Part shown: positions 1 to 10,290 of the stretch, piece by piece
Numbering within the stretch: position 1 is the stretch's first letter
Layout: the number at the start of each line of letters is the position of its first letter
Assembly: GCA_049968235.1 (NCBI GenBank)
Contig: JBMFRC010000039.1
Coordinates: 1-10,290 of the forward strand
Direction of reading: 5' to 3'
DNA length: 10,290 nt
Source: Candidatus Hydrogenedens sp.
GTDB lineage: Bacteria > Hydrogenedentota > Hydrogenedentia > Hydrogenedentales > Hydrogenedentaceae
Program-made: the position numbers and the translations under genes
The notes under the pieces: model-generated
Database searches by the model: none
What the model was told of the DNA's origin: nothing
What the model saw: only the letters and a program-made list of their open reading frames with translations

Positions 1-110
1 CTTCCACAGAACCTTCACCTTCAACAATACCTTCATGCACGCCTTCCGCAATGCCTTCATGCACGCCTTCCGCAGAACCTTCACCTTCAACAATACCTTC
101 TTGTTCCCCG
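1..110 (-). repeat. In-frame coding tandem repeats in the acidic tail of the GLUG protein. A 24-nt unit (8 aa, EGVHEGI[AV]) is nested in a 66-nt unit; the repeat may extend beyond the window edge.
   Basis: The identical 26-mer 'gaaccttcaccttcaacaataccttc' occurs at 10-35 and 76-101. The identical 20-mer 'cttcatgcacgccttccgca' occurs at 31-50 and 55-74. Both were read directly from the sequence. Confidence 0.7.
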
Positions 111-2110
111 TCAATATATCCTTCGCCTTCACAATTATCTTCACCTTCTAACTCACCTTCATAATCTCCCTGCCATCTCAATACCGGATATTCCAGCCCA
201 CGGCGCATATACCATACACTTACAAAATCCCAATTCATATAAAAAGTACTGCATTTCATTTCCTTCGTCATTAGCCCATATCCGCCATCAGAATTTTTTT
301 GCGTAGAGACATCCATATCCCAATAAACATTGGTATATGTTCCCTTCATATTGTAGCCATTAAATCCACCTACTGTTTGTAAATCCGTTCCTGTAGAAGT
401 CCCTTTTACAACACCCGCCGAGTAACATTTCGAAATATTTCCGGAATTTATACCCGAAAAACCTCCGGCATAGGCATAGGCTGTAACATTTGTAGTCGTG
501 TAGCAATTTGTGATTGTTCCTGCATTATTTCCGACAAAACCACCTACCATTTGTGAACCTCCAGAGTTTATAGTCCCCAAAGAGTAAGATTCCGAAATAG
601 AACCTTTACTCTGTCCTCCGACAAGTCCTCCAATATTAAAATCACCAACAATTTGAGCGTTTGTGCTACATGCAATTATAACTCCTCCTGCATTCTGTCC
701 GAGCAACCCGCCGATGGTGTCATAACCTTCTATCGTTCCCGCAAAACTGCAAAGAGATATAGAACCATTATCACTCCTTCCAATCAAACCACCGATATAT
801 ACATTCCCTCTAACCTGTCCACCAATCACCTTACAATTTTCGATAGTTCCCCCTTCGTTTCTTCCAACAATACTACCAACTTTCCAGTCCCCGGTTATTT
901 GGCAATCTTCAAATTGAAGCGAAGTAACCTTTCCCCCTGATACCAATCGACCTATCAGCCCAACATTATCCATGTCAGGACGATTAATATACAGACCTGT
1001 AATCTTATGTCCATCACCATTTATCTTCCCACAGAACTCAGAGATAGGTTCAAAACCTTTCTCCGAATTCAATAATTTTGTAGGACCTGCATCAATATCC
1101 GCTACAATTGTGTAATTTCCAAACCATGGATAATCCAGACTCTTACCAATTTGTTGTAACTCTTCCATAGTAGAGATAGAAATATTTTCTGGCTCCGGAA
1201 ATGTTACAGGGCCCAATACTTTTAGATAAGGATAATTGCTGGCTTTTGCCAATTCCCATATATTTACAAAATCCCAATCCTCATAGGTCGTTTCTCCTCC
1301 CATTTCTGTTGTTGTTTTCCCACTTCCTCCCGATGATGAACTCAAACCCGACCTATCTTTATCCCAATAACTTGATATAACCGTACCACTGTTGTTAACT
1401 CCTATCAACCCCCCATAACGAATAACACCTGCAACTTTTCCAACTGCATAAGTATTTTCAACTCTCCCCCCTTCATTTCTTCCGATTAAACCGCCAACCC
1501 ATGTATCGCCCTTAATATAACTCATCGAAAAACTATTCGTCACTTTTCCTTGATTTAATCCAATAAGTCCACCAACACTGTTAACCGCTTCTAAAATACC
1601 TCTGGAATAACACTTCTCTATCTTTCCTAAATTTTTACCTGCAATTCCACCGGCTTGTTCATTTCCAACAATTACATAATCCTCTACACCTAAATTTTCT
1701 ATTACCCCCGAAGTTCCAACCACTCCAAAGATACCGATATTACTTTCATCGGGACGATTTATATACACACCTCTTATTTTATGTCCATTGCCATCAAACT
1801 TGCCTGTAAAAGGTAAGAGATTATTCCCAACAGGTTCATAACCTTTCCCGTCATTCCATGTCTCACTTTCACTCAAATCCAAATCTGTATTAAGTATGTA
1901 ATTCCCGTTCAGGGGAAAATAGACTTCTTTACCTATCTTTAAAAATTTCTCAACAGTATCTATCAATATAGAATCATATAAAACTTGTGTCCTCATAAAC
2001 TGGTCTATCGTATTCAGACCTATCAAATCGGCATACGCAACTGAACTTATCAATGCTGTTATCAAAAGAAATAACAGAGTACTAAAACGGGAAAGGACAA
2101 ATTTGTTCAT
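1..2110 (-). CDS. Secreted GLUG motif-containing repeat protein (5' end and start codon at 2110; C-terminus continues past the window start). N-terminal Sec signal peptide, two tandem GLUG modules, acidic Glu/Gly-rich repeat tail.
   Basis: Manual reverse-strand translation from ATG at 2110 is open all the way to base 2 (about 703 codons). That explains the absence of any >=60 aa minus-strand ORF in the track, since the ORF is partial with no in-window stop. The N-terminus MNKFVLSRFSTLLFLLITALISSVAYA|DLIG has a positive n-region, a hydrophobic h-region and an AYA cleavage motif, so it is a Sec signal peptide. Two modules each begin with the GLUG hallmark: 'GYEPVGNNLLPFTGKFDGNGHKIRGVYINRPDESNIGIFGVVG' and 'GFEPISEFCGKINGDGHKITGLYINRPDMDNVGLIGRLVSG'. 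Each is followed by iterated GG(L/F)(I/V)G motifs (VGGLIGLNQG, WVGGLIGRNEGG, YGGLIGVNNSG, YIGGLIGRSDNG, IGGLLGQNAGG, IGGLVGGQSKG, VGGFVGNNAG, YAGGFSGINSG). Each ends in W-D-F-V..W...YPxL (YEDWDFVNIWELAKASNYPYLK; MNWDFVSVWYMRRGLEYPVLRW). The tail reads ...GDYEGELEGEDNCEGEEGYIDGEQEGIVEGEGSAEGVHEGIAEGVHEGIVEGEGSVE... A likely SD AAGGG sits about 11 nt upstream of the ATG. Confidence 0.82.
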   Translation of the reverse strand, partial: MNKFVLSRFSTLLFLLITALISSVAYADLIGLNTIDQFMRTQVLYDSILIDTVEKFLKIGKEVYFPLNGNYILNTDLDLSESETWNDGKGYEPVGNNLLPFTGKFDGNGHKIRGVYINRPDESNIGIFGVVGTSGVIENLGVEDYVIVGNEQAGGIAGKNLGKIEKCYSRGILEAVNSVGGLIGLNQGKVTNSFSMSYIKGDTWVGGLIGRNEGGRVENTYAVGKVAGVIRYGGLIGVNNSGTVISSYWDKDRSGLSSSSGGSGKTTTEMGGETTYEDWDFVNIWELAKASNYPYLKVLGPVTFPEPENISISTMEELQQIGKSLDYPWFGNYTIVADIDAGPTKLLNSEKGFEPISEFCGKINGDGHKITGLYINRPDMDNVGLIGRLVSGGKVTSLQFEDCQITGDWKVGSIVGRNEGGTIENCKVIGGQVRGNVYIGGLIGRSDNGSISLCSFAGTIEGYDTIGGLLGQNAGGVIIACSTNAQIVGDFNIGGLVGGQSKGSISESYSLGTINSGGSQMVGGFVGNNAGTITNCYTTTNVTAYAYAGGFSGINSGNISKCYSAGVVKGTSTGTDLQTVGGFNGYNMKGTYTNVYWDMDVSTQKNSDGGYGLMTKEMKCSTFYMNWDFVSVWYMRRGLEYPVLRWQGDYEGELEGEDNCEGEGYIDGEQEGIVEGEGSAEGVHEGIAEGVHEGIVEGEGSVE

Positions 2111-2173
2111 ATATAATACCCTTTTTATAGTTAACAAAAATTACTTTATTTCCAAATTTATTTTACACTTATT

Positions 2174-2203
2174 ATTATCTATCCTGTATGAAAGAAATTT
2201 CAA
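2174..2203 (-). promoter_or_regulatory. Candidate sigma70-like promoter for the GLUG gene (minus-strand -35 TTGAAA, 18-nt spacer, -10 GATAAT).
   Basis: The plus-strand hexamer 'tttcaa' at 2198-2203 is TTGAAA on the minus strand, and 'attatc' at 2174-2179 is GATAAT on the minus strand. They are 18 nt apart and about 65 nt upstream of the ATG at 2110, inside a 198-nt AT-rich divergent intergenic region. This is pattern-based only. Confidence 0.3.
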
Positions 2204-2210
2204 AAAATTT

Positions 2211-2246
2211 TTGACAGAATGAGAGCAAATTCAGAAGTATTATAAT
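2211..2246 (+). promoter_or_regulatory. Candidate promoter elements for the OppD-like gene. TTGACA and TATAAT are both perfect consensus hexamers, but the spacing is non-canonical.
   Basis: TTGACA at 2211-2216 and TATAAT at 2241-2246 (within tattataat) are 24 nt apart, whereas a canonical sigma70 spacer is 16-19 nt. The pairing is therefore uncertain, and either hexamer may pair with an unrecognised partner. The -10 lies about 62 nt upstream of the ATG at 2309, and an RBS-like AGG sits 6 nt before the ATG. Confidence 0.25.
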
Positions 2247-2308
2247 GGAAAAACATAAAAATGTTGTAAAATGATTACATAAACCTATCCGAAACATTCA
2301 GGATTCAT

Positions 2309-3316
2309 ATGAGTACAATTATTCAAAAACAAAAAAAATTGCTATCCATTAAAAATTTTACTATATGTCTCCATACAAGGCATGGAGATATTTTTCCTGT
2401 GCAGAATATTTCCTGTGGGATTGAAGAATATGAAATAATTGGAATTGTAGGAGAGTCCGGTTCCGGAAAAAGTGTCTTTGCCTTATCGCTTGCTTCCCTA
2501 TTACCTGAAGAGATGGTTCACATTGAAGCAGACGAAATAAAATTTTCCAAATACGATTTGAAAAAACTTTCTAAAAGGGAATGGCAAAAAATTCGGGGAG
2601 CAATGATAAGTTACGTTTTCCAGGATTCTTTGGTTGCACTCAATCCACACCTCACAGTAGGTTATCAGTTAATAGAACCCCTGCAAATCCATTATAACTA
2701 CTCTTCGGAAAAGGCAAAACAAATAGCAATAGAATATCTAAAAGCGGTGCAGATTCCCGACCCTGAATTACAGATAAGACGCTACCCGCATCATCTCTCC
2801 GGGGGAATGCGTCAGCGCATTGCAATAGCCATGGCTCTTATCTCAAAACCTAAACTTCTGATTGCTGATGAACCCACTACCGCTCTGGATGTTACTTTAC
2901 AAGCACAAACATTAAATTTGTTCAAAAAATTACATGAAGAAAAACCGTTTACAATGATAATTATCACTCACGACTTAAGTCTTGTTGCGGGACTTTGCCA
3001 TCGTGTCTGGATTATGTATGCAGGTAAAATTCTGGAAACTGCTCCTGCAGATAAACTCTTCCTGCATCCCCTTCATCCTTATACCCATGCTTTGCTTTCA
3101 TTAAAACGAAACATGGGTTCTCGTAAACGGTTGCAAAGTTTAGTCGGAAAACCACCCGATTTAAAAACTTTAACAACAAGATGTCCCTTTGCGGAGCGTT
3201 GTCCTTATGCTGTTGAAAAATGTTATGTTCAACCTTTTATCAGTACGGAGATGGAACCTCTCCATTCTACATCATGCTGGCGTATCATAAATCACGAAAT
3301 TGAGTTGGAGGTATAA
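2309..3316 (+). CDS. Oligopeptide/dipeptide-type ABC transporter ATP-binding protein (OppD/DppD family) with the Cys-containing oligopeptide-transporter C-terminal domain.
   Basis: 335-aa ORF. Walker A GESGSGKS; Q-loop region YVFQDS; ABC signature LSGGMRQR; Walker B LLIADEPTTALD; H-loop ITHDL. The C-terminal extension ...HPYTHALL...TTRCPFAERCPYAVEKCYVQ...STSCW is typical of the OppD/OppF C-terminal domain. The N-terminus (LLSIKNFTICLHTRHGDIFPVQNISCGIEEYEIIGIVGESGSGKS) fits the family. Confidence 0.88.
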   Translation: MSTIIQKQKKLLSIKNFTICLHTRHGDIFPVQNISCGIEEYEIIGIVGESGSGKSVFALSLASLLPEEMVHIEADEIKFSKYDLKKLSKREWQKIRGAMISYVFQDSLVALNPHLTVGYQLIEPLQIHYNYSSEKAKQIAIEYLKAVQIPDPELQIRRYPHHLSGGMRQRIAIAMALISKPKLLIADEPTTALDVTLQAQTLNLFKKLHEEKPFTMIIITHDLSLVAGLCHRVWIMYAGKILETAPADKLFLHPLHPYTHALLSLKRNMGSRKRLQSLVGKPPDLKTLTTRCPFAERCPYAVEKCYVQPFISTEMEPLHSTSCWRIINHEIELEV

Positions 3317-3407: not shown

Positions 3408-5465
3408 CTAATTAGATATTCCTATAGGGACTTCTACCGATTTCGTTGTATTATCTGTGGACGGCTGTTGAGAAGGTTGTTCTACGGGTGGAGATGCAGT
3501 TCCTTCTTGAGGTTTTTGTTCGCTCTGCTGTTCGGTCCCTGCTGGAGATGCAGTCTCTTCTTGCGATTTCTGTTCGGTCTTCGTTTCTTCGGGTCGAGGC
3601 TCTCTTGCTTTATTTATATCATTTTTGATTTGTTCCCAACGTTCCTGAGCAATTTGAATAATGGCTTTATGTCGTGGAACAGTCGCAACTATTTTATCGG
3701 CTGGACCCTGTCCTATAGAAAAGTCCAGAGGTTCTGTATCGGTAATATTTATTCTCATAGTATATGTCGGGGTAAATGATTTCCAGTTCAGGTCAGGTCG
3801 AATATCTTCACCTTGTAGTCCACTGAGCCTACTTAACAAATCCATAACATTTGTATTTATCAGTTTCGTCTCTTTTCCATCTTGAGCTACCAATATCCAA
3901 TCGCCACCTTCTCCTTTCTTTAATGTTTGAACAACATCCCCTTCCTTTATCTCTACAGAAGTAACTTTATCGGTAGCAAAATCCAGAATCTTTAGTTCGT
4001 ACACATCACGAGGTTTTAACAAAATTTTATTTGCATCAATCCGATTCATTACCAATCGTATAGGTTTATCGTCAAGCGTTGCATACACACCATCAATAGA
4101 ACGGGCTGTTCCTGCTACCTTGAAAGTATGTTCTTCTTCACCTGCCTTAAACACGATTTTCTTATTAAATTCACCGACATCCACATCATTATCCGCATAA
4201 TCCGATGCCTTCCATGATGCTAACGCAGAAGTTAAAGTGTTCAATGTAGTTGCCTGAACATTCAAATCTATCACAGGTTCAATAACTTTCCAATCATTCC
4301 CGTCCTTTTGCACCACAACTTTTCCTTCAGGTTGTTCGATAGTAACTTGCTGGATTTTATCTTTATCAAGATTCAAAGAGGGTAGGTCAAATAAATCCTG
4401 TCCCTTCGGGAAAATTTGTTCAAATGTATATTTACTAACTTCATACACAATATCTTCAGAGTTACTGGCTACACGAATATAACCGTTTTGAGCAGGATTG
4501 GGTCTGCCGGCTTCTAAAACAACATCCGATTCCGCCTCTCTTGAAATCGTCAATTTAAATGTGGGCGTTTCAAGTCCCCAATCCGCTTTCTTTGCAGGGT
4601 CAACAATCGAAGATGCTGTCAGATTTGCAAAGCGTCCTAACAAATTTTGTAGACCTGTTTCTTTATGTTTTTCACCAGTCCCTCCCTGTACAAGAACCCA
4701 TTCATATTCCTTTTTCTTCGGTTGTGGTTCCCCTTCTTTAGAACCTTCTTTTGCCCCTTCGTTTGCATTCTCCGAAGTTTGTTCCTGAGGGACTTCTTTT
4801 TCTTTTCGTTCAAAAATTAATTTTTTATCGGGCATTTCATAAGCGAGCCGTGTAATCTTATCCTTTTCGACTTTCAATATATCTTTATCCAACCAGCGGT
4901 CAGGACCGGGTGCTTTACTTGTATCATCCCCATAGATACCTGCCTCCTGCCGGAAATTAACACCTCCATCATAAATCTTTCGTTCTCCAGCCTTACGAAC
5001 GAATGTCAGTTGATAATTTGGAGATTTACCTACTAACAGTCTTAAAGCAGGTTCCCCTTCAGCAGATGTGAAGACATCCAGATGAAATGCCTGGTCATCC
5101 TTCAAATTATAATCAGCCAATGCATCATCGGTCGGTACCTCTGCACGCATTTCACCTTGAAGTTTAACTATTTTATCCAGATAATCTTCTACCGTTTCCT
5201 TTTTCGCCGGTGAGTTAAAATGAGTGCTGACGCGCCATTTATCTCCCTCTTTTTTAAGGGTAACTTTTTCATCTATTTTCGCACCGGTATACAGGTCTAT
5301 ACGGACAATGTTATCGATTTTTAGACTTTCAGGTATTAGTTTTTCAAATTTTGCTTGCTCGATAATAGAAGGTCGTTCTGCCTTTTTTGCTTGCTTCATA
5401 AAAACAAGTGCTCCAAGAACAACAAGGATTACTACAAGGATTAAAATCATCTTTTTAATATCCAT
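3408..5465 (-). CDS. DUF4340 domain-containing protein, the N-terminally membrane-anchored third gene of the GldA/GldFG-like ABC operon, with a low-complexity Q/E/P/T-rich repeat C-terminus.
   Basis: 685-aa ORF. The N-terminal single TM anchor MDIKKMILILVVILVVLGALVFMKQAKK is followed by a long soluble region with periodic 'D/N-W...V' strand-like segments typical of DUF4340 proteins encoded directly downstream of GldG-family genes. A perfect SD AGGAGG sits 7 nt upstream of the ATG at 5465. The gene begins 50 nt downstream of the GldFG stop, on the same strand. Confidence 0.8.
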   Translation of the reverse strand: MDIKKMILILVVILVVLGALVFMKQAKKAERPSIIEQAKFEKLIPESLKIDNIVRIDLYTGAKIDEKVTLKKEGDKWRVSTHFNSPAKKETVEDYLDKIVKLQGEMRAEVPTDDALADYNLKDDQAFHLDVFTSAEGEPALRLLVGKSPNYQLTFVRKAGERKIYDGGVNFRQEAGIYGDDTSKAPGPDRWLDKDILKVEKDKITRLAYEMPDKKLIFERKEKEVPQEQTSENANEGAKEGSKEGEPQPKKKEYEWVLVQGGTGEKHKETGLQNLLGRFANLTASSIVDPAKKADWGLETPTFKLTISREAESDVVLEAGRPNPAQNGYIRVASNSEDIVYEVSKYTFEQIFPKGQDLFDLPSLNLDKDKIQQVTIEQPEGKVVVQKDGNDWKVIEPVIDLNVQATTLNTLTSALASWKASDYADNDVDVGEFNKKIVFKAGEEEHTFKVAGTARSIDGVYATLDDKPIRLVMNRIDANKILLKPRDVYELKILDFATDKVTSVEIKEGDVVQTLKKGEGGDWILVAQDGKETKLINTNVMDLLSRLSGLQGEDIRPDLNWKSFTPTYTMRINITDTEPLDFSIGQGPADKIVATVPRHKAIIQIAQERWEQIKNDINKAREPRPEETKTEQKSQEETASPAGTEQQSEQKPQEGTASPPVEQPSQQPSTDNTTKSVEVPIGISN
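3486..3592 (-). repeat. Imperfect 54-nt (18-aa) coding tandem repeat, two copies, in the 3' tail of the DUF4340 gene.
   Basis: 'ggagatgcagttccttcttgaggtttttgttcgctct' at 3490-3526 matches 'ggagatgcagtctcttcttgcgatttctgttcggtct' at 3544-3580 with a 54-nt period. On the minus strand it encodes ...TEQKSQEETASPAG / TEQQSEQKPQEGTASPPV... The same repetitiveness creates the spurious antisense ORFs 3372-3779 and 3446-3628. Confidence 0.65.
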
Positions 5466-5515
5466 AATTCAACCTCCTGAGACTGATTATCTAAATATTG
5501 TTTATTAACGATTTA

Positions 5516-8047
5516 TTAACGATTTGATTCCGCAGATGCGATTTGTGCCATCGTATATGCGAGACGGGAACGACGACGGATAAAGTAAACCGCCAATCCC
5601 ACACAGATTACAATTGCATTCGATAAGGTATAATTCACTGTCCGCCATAGCATTTTTTGACTATCTGTCGGTTTCTCAATAGTGCGGTCAATCGGCTTAC
5701 GACCTCTCACATTCACGAGGTCTTGAGTGAGCGAAACCGCATCAACACAGTTCAGGAACAAATCAAGATTGCCTGCCTGCAAGAAGTTTTTACGAAACAT
5801 TTCAGAACAACCCAACAAAATCATCTTGGCGGGTTTCGGCTCAATATTCCCTGCGGGAGGTTCCGGTTCCGAATCATCAGGTGGTGCAGGTTCACCCGGA
5901 CGCGTTTGTGGTTTAGGCCAGGCAGGTCTTTCTTTTCCTGCAAAGGCGTCCGGGAATTGCCCTTCTAACATTACCATTAAGGGATACTTCTTCCGTGCTG
6001 TTAGAGAGGGAGGTTCAAATGATTTCGCAGATAGTTTCTCATTTCCCGGAACTGTCCACGCTTTTTCACTGGTAAACATTAAAGGTTTATAGGTCAGCCC
6101 CAATTCTTTTAACTTTTGCTCATTTATCTCCAGATGCGTGCCCCATAGGTAAAACACAGCGGAGAGCCGATTGGTTATGGATGTCTCCTGGTCCATAGAT
6201 TCATGGGTTACTAAGATATGCATCGGTAAACGGAAGGGCTGTCCCACCAATTGAGACATCAGGTCTCCTCCCCCCTGAACATTCAGGGTAACGCTATTCT
6301 CATCCATCAGAATATCTTCACTTACTTTTAAGCCATAATTTTCAAGTAATGGATTAATTTCAGGCTTTTCCTCACGCTTGGACACCGTATTCCCACGAGG
6401 AGTTGCTCGATAATCCCATTCATAGGTCTGAACCGCAAGAACTACGGACTTACCGGAACGCAATGCCCGATTTATCTCCCAGCGTTGGCGGTCATTAAAA
6501 CTACGAGGATTTACAACAACTAATGTATCGTATTCCTCCGGTAAGGGACTTTCTTTCGTTAGCTCTACGCGACGAACATCATACTTCTCCTGTCGCAATA
6601 TTTCTTCAAGATATACATACGGGTCTTCACTCTGCGGGATTTGTTGCCCCATCTGCTGTAGCATCTGTCGCATCTGTGGGTCTATATTAATCGCCTCTTT
6701 TGGAGCCACTAATGCCACTATCGGTGCTTTCGTGCGGGTGAGTTTATACACGGTGCTCACTATGCGATATTCCAATTCCTGTATATTTTCCGGAACAATC
6801 TGAGGGATTATCTCTTCAGGTTTATCTTTATACGCTACGCCTATGGCAGAATAAACCAACTTATTCGTTACTTCATCCTGACTGATGGCACGAACATTGA
6901 ACGGCTTTACGCCTTTATCTAAAAGTCGCCGTTCTACGGTCTCTTCTTCCGTTTCATTCTTCTTCTTTTCCTGTGCAAATATCTCATCCTGGTCCGAAAA
7001 TAGATTAGACACATCCAGATAAATCGTTTTATAGTTTAATTTCCCGCCTGCAGAAATTTTTAATTCTTCAAGTTTATCTTTGATATTCTGTTCCATATCT
7101 TTCATTGCAGTGGGCATGCTTTCCTGTGGACTTATATAAACATTTACCTGCACAGGCACCTCTACCTGTCTTAATATCTTTGCAGATGATTCGGAAACCG
7201 TGTAGATTTTATCTTCGGTCAGGTCAAAACGCTTTAAACTTGTTCCTACCATTAAAAAGTTGAACATTAATCCAATAGCCACGCAAACTGCTACCGCTAC
7301 GGTAAACATCATTTTGGCACCAGGACGGTTCCTCTGGTCAATATACATAATATTCAATACAAGAAATAACACCGTCCAGACGAAGAAAAATATCACATCC
7401 GCAAGGTCAATTACCCCTTTGGTAAATGACCCAAAATGCTTAAAAACGCCTAAAAGATTAGAAAATAACGAACCCAGCCCGGGCAGTTTGTCATCAATAT
7501 AGGATGCAATAAAAGAAGTCCCTAATAAGAAAAGAAGCAAACAGGTCAGCAGGGTAATAACAAAGGCTACTATCTGGTCCTTACAAAAACCGGAGAAGAA
7601 AATACCCAGAGCAAGGAAACAACTTGCTAACAGTAATGTTCCAAAATAACCCCCAATAATAGCACCCATATCCGGATTGCCAAGGTTCTTTAACATAATG
7701 GGAACTGTGAAAGTCATCGCCAGTGAAATTGCAAACACTGTTAATGCGGATAAAAATTTTCCCAAAACCAGTTCACTGGCTTTCATGGGAAAAGTTAATA
7801 GCATCTCCCAGGTGTTTTCCTTGCGTTCCTCTGCCCATAAACGCATCGTTATTGCAGGGATAAATACACAAAGGATTAATGGGAGATTTTCAAAATAAGG
7901 ACGCATATCGGCTACCGGGAAACTGAAAAACGAAGTGATATACAGTCCCACACTGATAGTGATAAATACAATGATAAAAATATATCCAATAGGTGAAGTG
8001 AAATAAGAGGCTAAATCTCTACGATATATACATAAAATATTACGCAT
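5516..8047 (-). CDS. Fused ABC-2 family permease (GldF-like, about 6 TM, N-terminal ~260 aa) plus GldG-like ABC auxiliary component ('ABC-type uncharacterized transport system'), with a C-terminal TM anchor.
   Basis: 843-aa ORF. The N-terminus RDLASYFTSPIGYIFIIVF... is followed by multiple hydrophobic helices typical of ABC-2 permeases. Next comes a large, mostly soluble region, and the C-terminal hydrophobic segment WRTVNYTLSNAIVICVGLAVYFIRRR matches GldG topology. SD AAGGAGGG sits 6 nt upstream of the ATG at 8047. The start overlaps the upstream ATPase gene stop by 8 nt (ATGCGTAA), indicating translational coupling. Confidence 0.82.
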   Translation of the reverse strand: MRNILCIYRRDLASYFTSPIGYIFIIVFITISVGLYITSFFSFPVADMRPYFENLPLILCVFIPAITMRLWAEERKENTWEMLLTFPMKASELVLGKFLSALTVFAISLAMTFTVPIMLKNLGNPDMGAIIGGYFGTLLLASCFLALGIFFSGFCKDQIVAFVITLLTCLLLFLLGTSFIASYIDDKLPGLGSLFSNLLGVFKHFGSFTKGVIDLADVIFFFVWTVLFLVLNIMYIDQRNRPGAKMMFTVAVAVCVAIGLMFNFLMVGTSLKRFDLTEDKIYTVSESSAKILRQVEVPVQVNVYISPQESMPTAMKDMEQNIKDKLEELKISAGGKLNYKTIYLDVSNLFSDQDEIFAQEKKKNETEEETVERRLLDKGVKPFNVRAISQDEVTNKLVYSAIGVAYKDKPEEIIPQIVPENIQELEYRIVSTVYKLTRTKAPIVALVAPKEAINIDPQMRQMLQQMGQQIPQSEDPYVYLEEILRQEKYDVRRVELTKESPLPEEYDTLVVVNPRSFNDRQRWEINRALRSGKSVVLAVQTYEWDYRATPRGNTVSKREEKPEINPLLENYGLKVSEDILMDENSVTLNVQGGGDLMSQLVGQPFRLPMHILVTHESMDQETSITNRLSAVFYLWGTHLEINEQKLKELGLTYKPLMFTSEKAWTVPGNEKLSAKSFEPPSLTARKKYPLMVMLEGQFPDAFAGKERPAWPKPQTRPGEPAPPDDSEPEPPAGNIEPKPAKMILLGCSEMFRKNFLQAGNLDLFLNCVDAVSLTQDLVNVRGRKPIDRTIEKPTDSQKMLWRTVNYTLSNAIVICVGLAVYFIRRRSRLAYTMAQIASAESNR

Positions 8048-9017
8048 GGGTCGCCCTCCTTCTTTCTGTAAGTTCCACTTCGGGTTTCTCCTTTTCTGTT
8101 AAGGTAAGGAAGGTTTCTTCCAAACTCAGAGGTTTTTCAGATAATTCTTTAATAGCCCAACGCTGATTCTGAGCTAACTCATTCAATTCACGCCATATCG
8201 ACACACCTAACTTGCTAATAACAATAAATGAGGAAAATCCATCCTGACTATTTATAAACTGGACCCTCTTTACACCACTAATTCCAGAAATATACTTTTG
8301 AACTTCATTCTGCTCACCTGACACTGTAAACAGATACCGTTCCGAATCTTTGGCTCTATTTCGAAGTTCTTCAATAGTGCCATCTCCGACAATTTTACCC
8401 CGATTAATAATCACTATTCGGTCTGCTGTGGCTTCTACCTCCTGCAAAATATGTGTGGAAAGAATAACAGTTTTATCTTTGGCAAGTTCATCAATAAGAT
8501 GCCGTATTTCTAAAATCTGATGGGGGTCCAAACCGGAGGTAGGTTCATCAAGAATAACTACTTCCGGATCATGAATTAATGCCTGAGCCAGAGCAGTTCG
8601 CTGACGATATCCTTTGGATAATTCACGAATTATCTTACGGAACATCGGTTTTAGCCCACAGGTCTCCACAACCAATTCCATACGATGATTCAACCGGGCT
8701 CCACTTAATCCTCTCGCCTGCCCCACAAACTTCAAATAGGAACTAACTTCCATATCCATATAAAGGGGCAACACTTCAGGAAGGTAGCCAATTACCTGCC
8801 GAACCTTCAATGGGTCCTTGGTTACATCATAACCTGCAACAACAGCCTTACCTGCTGTCGGATACAGATATGTAGTTAATATTTTCATTGTGGTTGATTT
8901 ACCTGCACCATTTGGTCCCAGCAGACCCACAACCTCGCCCTTTCGAACCTCAAAGGAAATGCGGTCTAACGCCACGACAGGACCGTAGTGCATTGTTAAG
9001 TCTGTAACTTGTATCAT
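8040..9017 (-). CDS. ABC transporter ATP-binding protein of the ABC-2 (GldA-like) type with a C-terminal accessory domain; first gene of the operon.
   Basis: 325-aa ORF. Walker A GPNGAGKST; Q-loop YLPE; signature LSKGYRQR; Walker B VVILDEPTSGLD; H-loop LSTHIL. A roughly 100-aa C-terminal extension is typical of GldA/CcmA-like ABC-2 ATPases. SD GGGAG sits about 10 nt upstream of the ATG at 9017. Confidence 0.88.
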   Translation of the reverse strand: MIQVTDLTMHYGPVVALDRISFEVRKGEVVGLLGPNGAGKSTTMKILTTYLYPTAGKAVVAGYDVTKDPLKVRQVIGYLPEVLPLYMDMEVSSYLKFVGQARGLSGARLNHRMELVVETCGLKPMFRKIIRELSKGYRQRTALAQALIHDPEVVILDEPTSGLDPHQILEIRHLIDELAKDKTVILSTHILQEVEATADRIVIINRGKIVGDGTIEELRNRAKDSERYLFTVSGEQNEVQKYISGISGVKRVQFINSQDGFSSFIVISKLGVSIWRELNELAQNQRWAIKELSEKPLSLEETFLTLTEKEKPEVELTERRRATHA

Positions 9018-9124: not shown

Positions 9125-9784
9125 TAATAATAACAAAACATTTTTTAGTAGCAGTCTATAATAATTGATGATAAAAAATATCACATTCCTTTTCATCTCT
9201 TCAAACTTCTATTTACCTTAAACCTTAAATATTTACGCAGTTTCCCTGCCCTAAAACACGATTACCTTAAAAAACGATACTCCCTTATTTAATGTTTACA
9301 AGAAAATCATATTTAACGATAAATTGCATTACTCACCTGTAAACTTATTATCATACCACCTGCCAAAAACCTTTCGATTTATCCCCTCTTATTCCGCCAG
9401 ATTATATCTATCAAACCATGACATTCAATTTATACATCTAAATAAGTCATACTTGTTAGGCAACATTAAGAAGGGGGGTGAGAAAAAGAAGAAACGAGAA
9501 GAGAAACTATTGAGAGTTAAATAGCAAAGCAAAGAAAAACAAAAAATGAAAAAAAAGGTCCGCGATGTAAGGTAAAAGAGATAGAGCAAACAAGTTTTAT
9601 AGATTACGAATTGCCCCATCAGAAACCGACCCGTCGTAGTTGTTTTTTAAGACAGATGCAAGAGGTGATACCAGAGAAAGAATTTGAGCAGAGGTGCATA
9701 GAGAAAGGAGTATATAAACTGAACTGGGGAGAGCGGAAACTTCTGTCCTTACTATTTTTTGCATTGTTGAGCAGTGTATGATAA

Positions 9785-9955
9785 TTTCTCTGTGTTCTCT
9801 TTGCAGGTAATTTGAACGGCGGCGGTAGAACGAATTTTTTTCTCCGTGTATATCTGCGTTCTCTGTGTTTGATTATATTTTTTTCACTACAGAGGACACA
9901 GAGAGGCACGGAGATATTTTTTCTTTTCACTACGGAGAACAAGGAGAGGAGTTAA
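9785..9955. repeat. Cluster of direct and nested inverted repeats built on CTCTGTG/CACAGAG and TCTCCGTG/CACGGAGA cores, inside a >1 kb ORF-less region.
   Basis: Direct repeats with about 4 mismatches over 26 nt: 'ttttcactacagaggacacagagagg' (about 9881-9906) and 'ttttcactacggagaacaaggagagg' (about 9924-9949). Nested inverted repeats: tctccgtg (9841-9848) with cacggaga (9907-9914), and ctctgtgt (9861-9868) with acacagag (9896-9903). There is a further ctctgtgttctct at 9788-9800. Confidence 0.5.
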
Positions 9956-10290
9956 TGAGTTCTTATTTTTGTTTTTTAGCATTTTTGGGTAGAGGGAAAG
10001 TAGCAGGAGGGGAACATTTTAGATAAATAGGATGATTTGAATTGAAATTTATTCTGGTGCATTTCCATACATGCGTGGATTGGGTGTGTCGATAAAAACC
10101 GCCCGTCTGGCAGGACTTTCTATCTGTGTTTTTGTAGATATGGATTTTGCAAATGAATGCGAAGGATTTTTTCATCTATCAATTCTTTTTTTCTGTCTCT
10201 CTGGTCCCATAATACGGATACGATAGTTATACACATATTTGCCCCCATGGAGGACAGTATTAATTAAACCTTTGTTTCCTGTTTCCCCCC

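What the first reader, a model, noticed from the sequence alone, without database searches (positions are those of the whole stretch)
1..2110. Unannotated-by-track, edge-truncated secreted two-module GLUG protein with an acidic EG-repeat tail
The supplied ORF track shows no minus-strand ORF over 2.1 kb. Hand translation nonetheless gives a continuous 703-codon reading frame with a clean signal peptide and two complete GLUG modules, each with a 'F-x-G-x-(F/I)-(D/N)-G-(N/D)-G-H-x-I' start, iterated GGLIG motifs and a 'WDF..W...YP.L' end. GLUG domains have no established biochemical function; they occur in IgA1-protease-like and other surface/adhesin proteins. The C-terminus switches to an acidic (E/G/V/H) tandem repeat that runs off the window. 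This suggests a long, possibly length-variable, negatively charged stalk or cell-surface tether. The gene is transcribed divergently from a solitary OppD-like ATPase.
Basis: partly seen in the sequence, partly recalled or inferred. Interest (0 to 1): 0.55.

Follow-up and report, generated by a model that had tools for sequence, protein, structure and literature searches.

The report
Anchored two-module GLUG envelope protein
This is a real but fairly ordinary exported "GLUG" beta-helix protein of an uncultured Candidatus Hydrogenedens bacterium. Its acidic tail is a short flexible stalk leading to a conserved cysteine-containing membrane anchor that several other exported proteins of this lineage share and that no domain library describes.

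Summary
Window 1-2110 (minus strand) is an open 703-codon frame with a signal peptide, two GLUG modules (Pfam Glug, E 1.9e-27) and a Glu/Gly-rich end. It was missing from the ORF track only because it runs off the contig edge. GenBank already lists it as "GLUG motif-containing protein, partial" from Candidatus Hydrogenedens sp.

AlphaFold2 predicts two beta-helices (pLDDT above 90). The best structural matches are BACOVA_03286 (3N6Z) and the N-terminal beta-helix of streptococcal IgA1 proteases. There is no protease domain.

The acidic tail is not a long repeat array. A contig from another MAG is 100% identical over 1379 nt and supplies the missing 67 residues. The full protein is 770 aa: an 83-aa EG linker (net charge -25), then K-C-G-C, a short spacer, a hydrophobic helix with a conserved Asp and Gly, and KKK.

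The same 40-aa tail ends other exported Hydrogenedens proteins: PASTA/cohesin/dockerin giants, a metalloprotease and a 239-aa protein. Pfam and NCBIfam have no model for it. It resembles the Cys-containing tripartite sorting signals (MYXO-CTERM class) but has a spacer that those lack.

Verdict: an ordinary GLUG envelope protein carrying a probably undescribed, lineage-specific anchoring or sorting module. Processing of the tail is inferred, not shown.

The parts
1..2110 (-). Edge-truncated gene for the GLUG protein: codons 1-703 of 770. Base 1 is the first base of codon 704.
   Evidence: Open frame. Identical to GenBank MGC8739768.1. L019 is 100% identical over window 1-1379 and continues 203 nt further to the stop codon.
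2030..2110 (-). Sec-type signal peptide, residues 1-27, with predicted cleavage after A-Y-A.
   Evidence: Basic n-region, a 12-residue hydrophobic core with Kyte-Doolittle 2.56, and the -3/-1 Ala rule. The signal-peptide-like N-terminus is conserved in orthologues. Judged by rules of thumb only; no SignalP was available.
1217..1975 (-). GLUG module 1, residues 46-298: a small N-terminal cap subdomain, a right-handed beta-helix and a YWD...WDF...YPYL C-terminal cap.
   Evidence: Pfam Glug stretches. AF2 pLDDT 89-98 with regular three-strand rungs. Motifs located.
1187..1216 (-). Short inter-module linker, residues 299-308 (LGPVTFPEPE).
   Evidence: pLDDT below 50 at residues 296-302. 40-90% conserved across the aligned relatives; Pro305 and Pro307 are invariant.
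167..1186 (-). GLUG module 2, residues 309-648: cap subdomain, a longer beta-helix and a C-terminal cap ending in YPVLRWQG.
   Evidence: Pfam best stretch at 411-430. phmmer hit to S. pneumoniae IgA1 protease 6xja/6xjb/7jgj, E about 1.5e-5, over residues 320-543. AF2 pLDDT 90-98. Foldseek matches 3n6z and 6xja.
2..166 (-). First 55 residues of the 83-residue polyanionic (E-G-x-x)n linker; the contig ends inside it.
   Evidence: Composition E 0.31, G 0.25, net charge -20. Tandem repeats. pLDDT 24-41. The remainder of the linker and the C-G-C/TM/KKK tail are read from L019 and P0148.
2111..2308 (.). AT-rich (about 30% GC) divergent intergenic region between the GLUG gene and the OppD-like gene.
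   Evidence: Composition. Sigma-70-like hexamers occur on both strands but no more often than in shuffled sequence, so promoters are not demonstrated.
2309..3316 (+). Divergently transcribed solitary OppD/DppD-type ABC ATPase; a conserved neighbour whose functional link is unknown.
   Evidence: Pfam ABC_tran plus oligo_HPY. NCBIfam OppD 295 bits, below the cut-off. Adjacent to the GLUG orthologue in loci at 81, 62, 59 and 51% identity, but not at 44%.

Best explanation
The gene encodes a 770-residue cell-envelope protein of a diderm Candidatus Hydrogenedens bacterium.

Shown:
- An N-terminal signal-peptide-like sequence.
- Two tandem GLUG modules, each predicted to be a capped right-handed beta-helix. 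They belong to the same fold family as BACOVA_03286 and the substrate-binding N-terminal domain of M26 IgA1 proteases, but no catalytic domain is attached.
- An 83-residue intrinsically disordered Glu/Gly-rich stalk with net charge -25.
- A roughly 40-residue C-terminal module: K-C-G-C, a 6-14 residue hydrophilic spacer, a helix with a hydrophobic core carrying a conserved Asp and Gly (LLDFITIGLLLSLMSGMY), then KKK.
- The same stalk and tail also end unrelated exported proteins of the same lineage.

Inferred:
- The protein is exported by Sec and held in the cytoplasmic membrane by the C-terminal helix, with KKK in the cytoplasm.
- The conserved tail is recognised by a common, still unidentified partner. 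By analogy with MYXO-CTERM and myxosortase, this would involve modification at the Cys pair, cleavage, and transfer to the cell surface.
- There the acidic stalk holds the two beta-helices away from the envelope as non-catalytic binding (adhesin-like) modules.
For: Architecture:
- Open frame and Pfam Glug E 1.9e-27.
- AF2 models: mean pLDDT 81.8 for the window protein and 77.7 for full-length orthologue P0003. Both show two beta-helices at pLDDT above 90, a disordered linker and, in P0003, a C-terminal helix at 747-775.
- Foldseek: 3n6z at E 3e-6 and target TM-score 0.60; 6xja, 6xjb and 7uvk at E 2e-4 to 5e-4. phmmer against PDB hits IgA1 protease at E 1.4e-5.
- No HExxH motif and no Peptidase_M26_C hit.

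Missing C-terminus:
- L019 is 1379/1379 nt identical to the window and continues to a stop codon. P0148 and P0121 give the same 66-67 residues.

The tail is a shared module:
- Ten full-length relatives at 36-81% identity all end in it.
- A 49-position tail profile searched against 1.84 billion representatives found 28 proteins at E<=1e-3. In 27 the match lies at or close to the C-terminus (in fragment P0141 it is followed by 36 further residues). The 28th, P0143, matches five internal repeats and looks spurious.
- The carriers have different passengers: GLUG only, PASTA x7 plus cohesin, dockerin and EF-hand, and an NF038122-type metalloprotease. A 239-aa protein next to that metalloprotease also carries it.
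- In a 37-tail alignment the Asp and Gly of the helix are invariant. The Cys motif is C-G-C in 35 tails and C-C-G-G in two; four further tails excluded by the filter read C-G-G-C, G-C-F or C-E-C.
- Every named carrier is Ca. Hydrogenedens or Hydrogenedentota. The genome scan found 6 loci, with two per MAG in two MAGs.

Positional equivalence to known sorting signals:
- Homologues of the tail-bearing metalloprotease outside this lineage end in a Cys-containing, TM plus RRR tail of myxobacterial type (P0178) or another TM plus RR tail (P0177).
- GLUG relatives elsewhere end in T9SS C-terminal domains or dockerin-like modules.

Diderm envelope: LptE, BamD/YfiO and ExbBD genes occur in Hydrogenedens loci.

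Surface-like evolution: the GLUG gene is the fastest-evolving gene of the locus, at 80.5% identity against 86-97.5% for its neighbours.

Precedent: MYXO-CTERM often has two nearby Cys residues, is cleaved by the CPBP protease MrtX in a Cys-dependent way, and directs proteins to the surface.
Against: - No experiment or proteomic data exist for any carrier, so cleavage, lipidation and surface exposure are pure analogy.
- The known Cys-containing tripartite signals have no spacer between motif and TM. This tail has 6-14 residues, uses Lys as often as Arg, and matches none of the NCBIfam or Pfam sorting-domain models.
- No candidate sorting enzyme (CPBP, rhomboid or exosortase family) was seen next to any tail gene, and whole genomes could not be profiled.
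- Most carriers contain GLUG modules, so part of the tail's spread could be paralogy rather than modular reuse.
- The ligand of the beta-helices is unknown.
- The signal peptide was judged by rules of thumb only.
Confidence: 0.6

Rival explanations
1. Plain tail-anchored periplasmic protein. The C-terminal helix is a permanent, uncleaved inner-membrane anchor. The acidic stalk lets the beta-helices reach into the periplasm or peptidoglycan layer. The C-G-C pair forms a disulfide or binds a metal, and no sorting enzyme exists.
For: The spacer between C-G-C and the helix, and the amphipathic start of the helix (FFEDLWQR...), are unlike intramembrane-cleaved signals. No sorting protease was seen nearby. 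PASTA domains, which share the tail, are peptidoglycan-facing modules in other bacteria (established knowledge). A fully extended 83-aa linker would be about 30 nm, roughly the scale of a periplasm (inference).
Against: A simple anchor does not need an invariant Cys motif, Asp and Gly conserved across unrelated passengers. Cohesin, dockerin and GLUG passengers are typically extracellular. Homologous passengers elsewhere carry genuine surface-sorting signals such as T9SS C-terminal domains or MYXO-like tails.
Confidence: 0.28
2. Carbohydrate-active enzyme or glycan-binding partner. The beta-helices bind or cleave a polysaccharide and work with the co-directional downstream gene for a DUF4964-DUF5127-GtaA six-hairpin protein.
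For: The GLUG gene is followed 70-130 nt downstream by the GtaA-like gene in every orthologous locus down to 51% identity. Right-handed beta-helices are the fold of pectate, alginate and fucoidan lyases and polygalacturonases, which appear as weaker Foldseek hits at E 5e-3 to 0.1.
Against: Those hits have query TM-scores of only 0.1-0.2 and rmsd above 12 A, so they reflect the generic fold only. The specific matches (3n6z and the IgA1 protease N-terminal domain) are non-catalytic. No CAZy-type family hit appeared in Pfam or NCBIfam. The residues invariant across orthologues are mostly Gly, Asn and aromatic structural positions. The synteny is confined to one genus-level clade and is lost at 44% identity.
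Confidence: 0.1
3. IgA1-protease-like (M26) metalloprotease or another protease.
For: Weak Peptidase_M26_N hit at E 0.0081 and 15.9 bits against a cut-off of 27.7. Weak ZmpA/ZmpB NCBIfam hits. Structural similarity to the IgA1 protease N-terminal domain.
Against: The similarity covers only the non-catalytic beta-helix. There is no HExxH, no Peptidase_M26_C, no G5 domain and no C-terminal LPXTG. The whole 770-aa protein is accounted for by the signal peptide, two helices, the linker and the tail.
Confidence: 0.01
4. Pseudogene or assembly artefact.
For: The gene is cut by contig ends in two MAGs, and the first 63 nt of L019 do not match the window.
Against: There is an uninterrupted frame of 703 codons. 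The sequence is 99.7-100% identical in three independent MAGs. Full-length conserved orthologues exist with conserved synteny. The contig breaks coincide with the internal repeats.
Confidence: 0.01

Closest known systems
GLUG-motif beta-helix proteins (Pfam PF07581), structurally represented by BACOVA_03286 (PDB 3N6Z)
   Same: Significant Glug HMM match and the same capped right-handed beta-helix. Foldseek gives E 3e-6 and target TM-score 0.60. The module boundaries follow the same motifs (F-x-G-x-F-D-G-N-G-H-x-I ... YWD ... WDF..W..YP.L).
   Different: There are two modules in tandem, followed by a polyanionic EG stalk and a C-G-C/TM/basic tail. In the homologue list, relatives outside this lineage end in T9SS C-terminal domains, dockerin-like modules or nothing recognisable, and some archaeal ones in plain TM-plus-basic tails.
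N-terminal domain of M26 IgA1 metalloproteases (S. pneumoniae IgA1P/ZmpA, PDB 6XJA/6XJB/7JGJ; G. haemolysans 7UVK)
   Same: Homologous small subdomain plus beta-helix: phmmer E 1.4e-5 and Foldseek E 2e-4. In IgA1P this domain binds the substrate Fab and gates the active site, which shows that a GLUG helix can act as a protein-binding module (PMC7695701).
   Different: No middle or C-terminal catalytic domains, no HExxH, no G5 domain and no LPXTG. The organism is an environmental diderm anaerobe, not a mucosal Gram-positive.
[quoted passage not shown]
   Same: It lies at the extreme C-terminus and has a short motif with a conserved Cys (usually two Cys one residue apart, as is frequent in MYXO-CTERM), then a TM helix, then a basic cluster. 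It occurs on several unrelated exported proteins of one lineage, is preceded by a low-complexity linker, and the host is a diderm.
   Different: There is a 6-14 residue hydrophilic spacer between motif and TM, where the known ones have none. An Asp and a Gly are conserved inside the helix. Lys is as frequent as Arg. The linker is acidic EG rather than Ser/Thr/Gly. There is no HMM match and no identified CPBP-type enzyme. Nothing has been tested experimentally.
LPXTG/sortase, PEP-CTERM/exosortase and T9SS C-terminal-domain signals
   Same: The general logic is the same: an N-terminal signal peptide plus a C-terminal sorting or anchoring element. LPXTG signals also have a spacer before the TM.
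   Different: There is no LPXTG at the C-terminus (the only LPxTG-like string, LPFTG at residue 99, is internal to module 1). There is no P-E-P motif and no Por_Secre_tail beta-sandwich.

Membership tests
GLUG motif-containing proteins (Pfam PF07581) | Glug HMM match above the gathering score, in repeated copies | tested here: met
   94.1 bits against a cut-off of 20.5, E 1.9e-27, in 5 stretches. Eight GG[LIFVM]xG rungs.
GLUG motif-containing proteins (Pfam PF07581) | Right-handed beta-helix fold as in 3N6Z and the IgA1 protease N-terminal domain | tested here: met
   AF2 pLDDT above 90 over both modules. Foldseek matches 3n6z at E 3e-6 and target TM-score 0.60, and 6xja at E 2e-4. This compares a predicted structure, not a solved one.
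M26 IgA1-specific metalloprotease (ZmpA/ZmpB/ZmpC) | HExxH zinc site within the Peptidase_M26_C catalytic domain | tested here: not met
   No HExxH in the 703 or 770 residues. No Peptidase_M26_C hit. ZmpA/ZmpB models score 13-23 bits against a cut-off of 3000.
M26 IgA1-specific metalloprotease (ZmpA/ZmpB/ZmpC) | Peptidase_M26_N region above the Pfam threshold | tested here: not met
   15.9 bits against a cut-off of 27.7, E 0.0081.
[quoted passage not shown] | Located at the extreme C-terminus of proteins that have an N-terminal signal peptide | tested here: met
   Reconstructed C-terminus. 27 of the 28 profile hits lie at or close to the C-terminus. Tails listed.
[quoted passage not shown] | Signature motif with an invariant Cys | tested here: met
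   C-G-C in 35 of the 37 aligned tails and C-C-G-G in two. Four tails excluded by the filter read C-G-G-C, G-C-F or C-E-C. At least one Cys is always present.
[quoted passage not shown] | Hydrophobic TM helix followed by a basic cluster at the end | tested here: met
   19-residue window hydropathy of 1.8-2.5. AF2 helix at 747-775 in P0003. The tails end in KKK, KRK, RRRR or similar.
[quoted passage not shown] | Signature motif abuts the TM segment with no spacer | tested here: not met
   6 residues lie between C-G-C and the start of the helix, and 10-16 before the hydrophobic core. Haft states that the known ones have no spacer.
[quoted passage not shown] | Match to a curated model (TIGR03901, TIGR04564, TIGR04288 or the JDVT-CTERM model) | tested here: not met
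   No sorting-domain model hit for 7 tails at E<=10 in NCBIfam or for 4 of them in Pfam. There were only sub-threshold hits of linker plus tail to two MYXO-CTERM-anchored full-length families.
[quoted passage not shown] | Present on multiple unrelated proteins within one genome | tested here: inconclusive
   At least 2 per MAG in two MAGs, and two adjacent carriers on one contig. At least 4 passenger types occur lineage-wide. No complete genome could be scanned, and most carriers contain GLUG.
[quoted passage not shown] | Co-occurring cognate CPBP/Rce1-type intramembrane protease | not testable with these tools
   No PF02517, rhomboid or exosortase gene was found in any of the loci fetched.
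[quoted passage not shown] | Cys-dependent C-terminal cleavage and surface attachment | not testable with these tools
   This needs experiments. The precedent is only for MYXO-CTERM and MrtX (PMC11980579).
LPXTG / PEP-CTERM / T9SS C-terminal domain | The respective C-terminal motif or domain | tested here: not met
   No C-terminal LPXTG or PEP motif and no Por_Secre_tail or VPEP Pfam hit on the tails or on the 703-aa window protein; Pfam was not run on a full-length orthologue.

The most novel reading that the evidence does not exclude
The EG-stalk/C-G-C/spacer/TM/basic module is a previously undescribed protein-sorting signal specific to Hydrogenedentota. It would be a fifth Cys-containing C-terminal signal with an unusual spacer and an intramembrane Asp. 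A dedicated, still unidentified enzyme would process it to display GLUG, PASTA-cohesin-dockerin and metalloprotease proteins on the outer surface of these uncultured syntrophs.
Probability: 0.4. Interest if true: 0.55.

Novelty: new variant of a known kind. Interest (0 to 1): 0.38.

Why it matters
The GLUG protein itself adds little. Thousands of such proteins exist, and this one is already named in GenBank.

It is a conserved, unmodelled C-terminal module that marks a small set of exported proteins in Candidatus Hydrogenedens, an uncultured lineage known mainly from anaerobic digesters.

If the module is a true sorting signal, it would extend the recently established family of Cys-dependent C-terminal sorting systems (MYXO-CTERM and myxosortase) to another phylum. 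It would also give a simple sequence tag for predicting the cell-surface proteome of these organisms, including cohesin/dockerin/PASTA giants that may mediate cell-cell or cell-substrate contact in syntrophic consortia.

A new HMM for the tail would improve the annotation of these MAGs.

Tried and rejected
- **Exact look-up of the 66-aa fragment P0121 for its contig:** not on record. The C-terminus was recovered instead through cluster member P0148 and locus L019.
- **Word-indexed search with the tail profile:** returned only 2 proteins, so it was too insensitive for a 49-position profile. The exhaustive HMMER search over the representatives gave 28.
- **The search for related loci with the tail alignment on genomes:** It was replaced by a hand-made degenerate DNA pattern (W-K-[YH]-x2-D-x4-G-x5-M-S-G-M), which by design misses many variants, including this gene's own W-Q-R form.
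- **NCBIfam and Pfam scans of isolated tails at E<=10:** no sorting-domain model matched.
- **Search for a neighbouring sorting enzyme in about 20 loci:** none found.
- **Literature searches for GLUG or Hydrogenedentes surface proteins:** nothing specific.
- **Rfam, tRNA and promoter/terminator scans of the window:** nothing relevant.
- **Link to the GldA/GldF-GldG/DUF4340 ABC cluster:** considered and rejected, because that adjacency is absent in orthologous loci at 59% and 51% identity.
- **Protease and pseudogene readings:** considered and rejected (see rival explanations).
Full report
**Observation.** Translating window 1-2110 on the minus strand gives 703 sense codons with no stop. The ORF lister does not show this frame because it omits ORFs that run off the source. 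The 'missing from the track' point is therefore a rule of the track, not biology. The window is a complete 10,290-bp contig of a Candidatus Hydrogenedens sp. MAG. Its 703-aa product is already in GenBank as MGC8739768.1, 'GLUG motif-containing protein, partial'.
- F-x-G-x-[FI]-[DN]-G-[ND]-G-H-x-I at residues 101 and 359
- Y-W-D at 248 and 596
- WDF..W..YP.L at 279 and 627
- eight GG[LIFVM]xG rungs

Pfam Glug scores 94.1 bits (cut-off 20.5, E 1.9e-27, five stretches). The N-terminus has basic residues, a 12-residue hydrophobic core and an A-Y-A|D site, with no lipobox. This fits a Sec signal peptide, judged by rule of thumb only.

**Structure of the two modules.** AlphaFold2 with a 12-sequence alignment gives mean pLDDT 81.8 and pTM 0.76. 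It predicts two separate, regularly rung beta-helices, at residues about 46-298 and 309-635, both mostly above pLDDT 90. Each has a small N-terminal cap subdomain and a short helical C-terminal cap. The signal-peptide region and residues 630-703 fall below pLDDT 50.

Foldseek against the PDB ranks BACOVA_03286 first (3N6Z; E 3e-6, target TM-score 0.60). Next come the streptococcal and Gemella IgA1 metalloproteases 6XJA, 6XJB and 7UVK (E 2e-4 to 5e-4). Generic beta-helix enzymes follow only at E above 5e-3 with TM 0.1-0.2. Sequence search of the PDB independently hits the IgA1 protease N-terminal region with module 2 (E 1.4e-5).

In S. pneumoniae IgA1P that region is a small subdomain plus a beta-helix. 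It binds the IgA1 Fab and gates the active site (PMC7695701). The protein here has no HExxH, no Peptidase_M26_C and no G5 domain, and Peptidase_M26_N is below threshold. It shares the binding module of those proteases, not their chemistry.

**What lies beyond the contig edge.** Full-length relatives at 39-81% identity are 704-794 aa long (P0018, at 36%, is 889 aa) and all end the same way. An E/G-rich linker leads to K/G-C-G-C, then a short hydrophilic stretch, a hydrophobic helix and a basic end.

For this very gene, a contig from another MAG supplies the rest (GCA_049969095.1, locus L019). It is identical to window 1-1379 over 1379 of 1379 nt and continues 203 nt to a stop codon. The missing residues are GVHEGIREGGNEGIVEGEGEGTSGPDNKCGCNGSGGNIFDNLWQRLLDFITIGLLLSLMSGMYRKKK. 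A 66-aa partial protein, MGC8739540.1, has the same sequence. Its accession lies in the same series as the window's protein, so it is probably the other side of the assembly gap in the window's own MAG (inference).

The complete protein is therefore 770 aa. The linker is 83 aa with 23 Glu, 23 Gly and net charge -25. It is not a long array. In the ten full-length relatives analysed (36-81% identity) the linker is 78-102 aa, with net charge -19 to -30. Two MAG contigs, the window itself and the 3,406-bp contig L004, break inside this region. This matches the 24-nt and 66-nt DNA repeats found there. An AF2 model of the full-length orthologue P0003 shows the linker disordered (residues 625-746) and a C-terminal helix at 747-775.

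**The tail is a shared module.** I searched a 49-position profile of the tail against 1.84 billion representative proteins. It found 28 proteins at E<=1e-3. In 27 of them the match lies at or close to the C-terminus. The 28th, P0143, matches five internal repeats and looks spurious. The carriers are:
- one-, two- and multi-module GLUG proteins
- 1,200-1,700-aa proteins with up to seven PASTA domains plus cohesin, dockerin and EF-hand domains
- a protein with an NF038122-type metalloprotease domain

Orthologues of that metalloprotease carry a shorter-spacer variant of the tail. Directly upstream of it lies a 239-aa protein of unknown fold. It ends in (EG)7-...-KGCGC-spacer-TM-RERK.

In an alignment of 37 tails the Asp and Gly of the helix are invariant. 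The cysteine motif is C-G-C in 35 tails and C-C-G-G in two. Four further tails that the filter excluded read C-G-G-C, G-C-F or C-E-C. The consensus is C-G-C-x(7-14)-K-[YF]-L-L-D-F-I-L-x-G-x-L-x-x-L-M-S-G-M-basic.

Every carrier with a source name is Candidatus Hydrogenedens or Hydrogenedentota. A degenerate DNA pattern scanned over 185,579 species genomes hit six loci, with two loci per MAG in two MAGs. Two of the six sit in a MAG labelled 'Nitrospirales', which nevertheless has Hydrogenedens gene order at 72-77% identity. Neither NCBIfam (June 2026) nor Pfam has a model that matches the tail, even at E<=10.

**How it probably works.** The layout is a signal peptide, a passenger, a low-complexity linker, a short Cys motif, a TM helix and a basic end. 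This is the layout of the Cys-containing tripartite sorting signals that Haft described: MYXO-CTERM, Synerg-CTERM, CGP-CTERM and JDVT-CTERM. [quoted passage not shown]

For MYXO-CTERM, the CPBP protease MrtX cleaves the tail in a Cys-dependent way and is needed for surface display (PMC11980579). Loci from this lineage encode LptE, BamD/YfiO and ExbBD, so the cells are diderm. A protein with a signal peptide and a C-terminal TM helix would then remain on the inner membrane unless it is processed.

Three lines of evidence argue that the tail is recognised by a common partner:
- Polar residues inside the helix are conserved across unrelated passengers.
- Homologous passengers in other phyla end in MYXO-like tails, other TM/RR tails, T9SS C-terminal domains or dockerin-like ends.
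- The GLUG gene is the fastest-evolving gene of the locus, at 80.5% identity against 86-97.5% for its neighbours.

Three points argue against simply filing it with the known signals. There is a 6-14 residue spacer where the known signals have none. No model matches it. No CPBP, rhomboid or exosortase gene appears in any locus I could read.

My estimates are as follows. About 0.6: an exported envelope protein held by this module, with the beta-helices acting as non-catalytic binding modules on an acidic stalk. About 0.4: the module is a true processed sorting signal. About 0.3: it is a permanent inner-membrane anchor.

**Genomic context.** Divergent from the GLUG gene is a solitary OppD/DppD-type ABC ATPase. 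Downstream, beyond the window, is a gene for a DUF4964-DUF5127-GtaA six-hairpin protein. This three-gene order persists in orthologous loci at 81, 62, 59 and 51% identity and is lost at 44%. That leaves open a glycan-related role for the beta-helices, but nothing else supports it.

The GldA / GldF-GldG fusion / DUF4340 cluster at window 3408-9017 is adjacent only in the closest relative. I do not consider it part of the feature.

**Verdict.** The gene is an ordinary, already annotated member of the very large GLUG family (more than 1,660 homologues at E<=1e-3). The 'mysterious' acidic tail is an 83-aa stalk. The one thing that appears new is the lineage-specific C-G-C/TM/basic module it leads to, which lies just outside the window.

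Noticed in passing
window 9314-10290: Homology to the syntenic Hydrogenedens SAG locus stops at window 9313 (blastn). The last ~1 kb has stops in all six frames, gives no Rfam or tRNA hit, shows a GC-skew sign flip at 9501-10000 and contains only weak repeats. It appears to be non-coding or decayed DNA at the contig end. In the relative, a 968-aa gene lies at the corresponding position.
   Followed up: partly
window 3408-9017 (minus strand): Operon-like cluster: a GldA-like ABC ATPase (8040-9017; TIGR03522, 332 bits), a fused GldF-GldG-like permease/auxiliary protein (5516-8047) and a DUF4340 protein (3408-5465). All score below the equivalog cut-offs. It is 86-97.5% identical to the SAG relative but is not next to GLUG orthologues at 59% or 51% identity.
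   Followed up: partly
window 2309-3316; L004 182-1197: A solitary OppD/DppD-type ATPase with no permease or binding-protein gene nearby is conserved divergently next to the GLUG gene. In MAG GCA_049971155.1 the same gene is called in two pieces of 272 and 62 aa, which suggests a frameshift or assembly error there.
   Followed up: no
proteins P0016, P0019, P0020, P0023, P0046, P0176 (related loci, not in the window): A second, different C-terminal module follows EG-rich linkers in other GLUG proteins and in a metalloprotease homologue: D-W-x-I-S-L-S-E-L-L-R-x-I-Q-F-F-N-x-G-G-Y-H-x-C-P...E-D-G-Y-C-P-G, sometimes duplicated. Pfam and NCBIfam have no model beyond a weak EF-hand_6 hit. It may be a dockerin- or EF-hand-like alternative anchoring module.
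   Followed up: partly
L012 9272-11341 (also L013, L014): Two adjacent genes both end in the EG-linker/C-G-C/TM/basic tail. One encodes a 239-aa protein of unknown fold and the other a 446-aa NF038122-type metalloprotease.
   Followed up: partly
L005, L010, L011 (CAZJTZ01 contigs): A MAG deposited as 'uncultured Nitrospirales bacterium' has the Hydrogenedens gene order OppD-like | GLUG | GtaA-like at 72-77% amino-acid identity and two tail-bearing genes. The taxonomic label looks wrong, or the bin is mixed.
   Followed up: partly
L019 1-63: The first 63 nt of the 4,992-bp contig that supplies the C-terminus do not match the window, although the next 1379 nt are identical. This is probably a chimeric contig end caused by similarity between the two GLUG modules.
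   Followed up: no
window residue 99 (nt about 1802-1816, minus strand): An internal LPFTG string fits the LPxTG pattern. It is part of the conserved P-F-T-G module-start motif, far from the C-terminus, so it is not a sortase signal.
   Followed up: yes
proteins P0007, P0172 (related, not in the window): The linker-plus-tail regions give weak sub-threshold hits to the C-terminal parts of two myxobacterial MYXO-CTERM-anchored families. NF045523 hits at E 1.6e-4 and 0.078, and NF045638 at E 2.7e-3. This may be low-complexity bias or a faint sign of relatedness.
   Followed up: no
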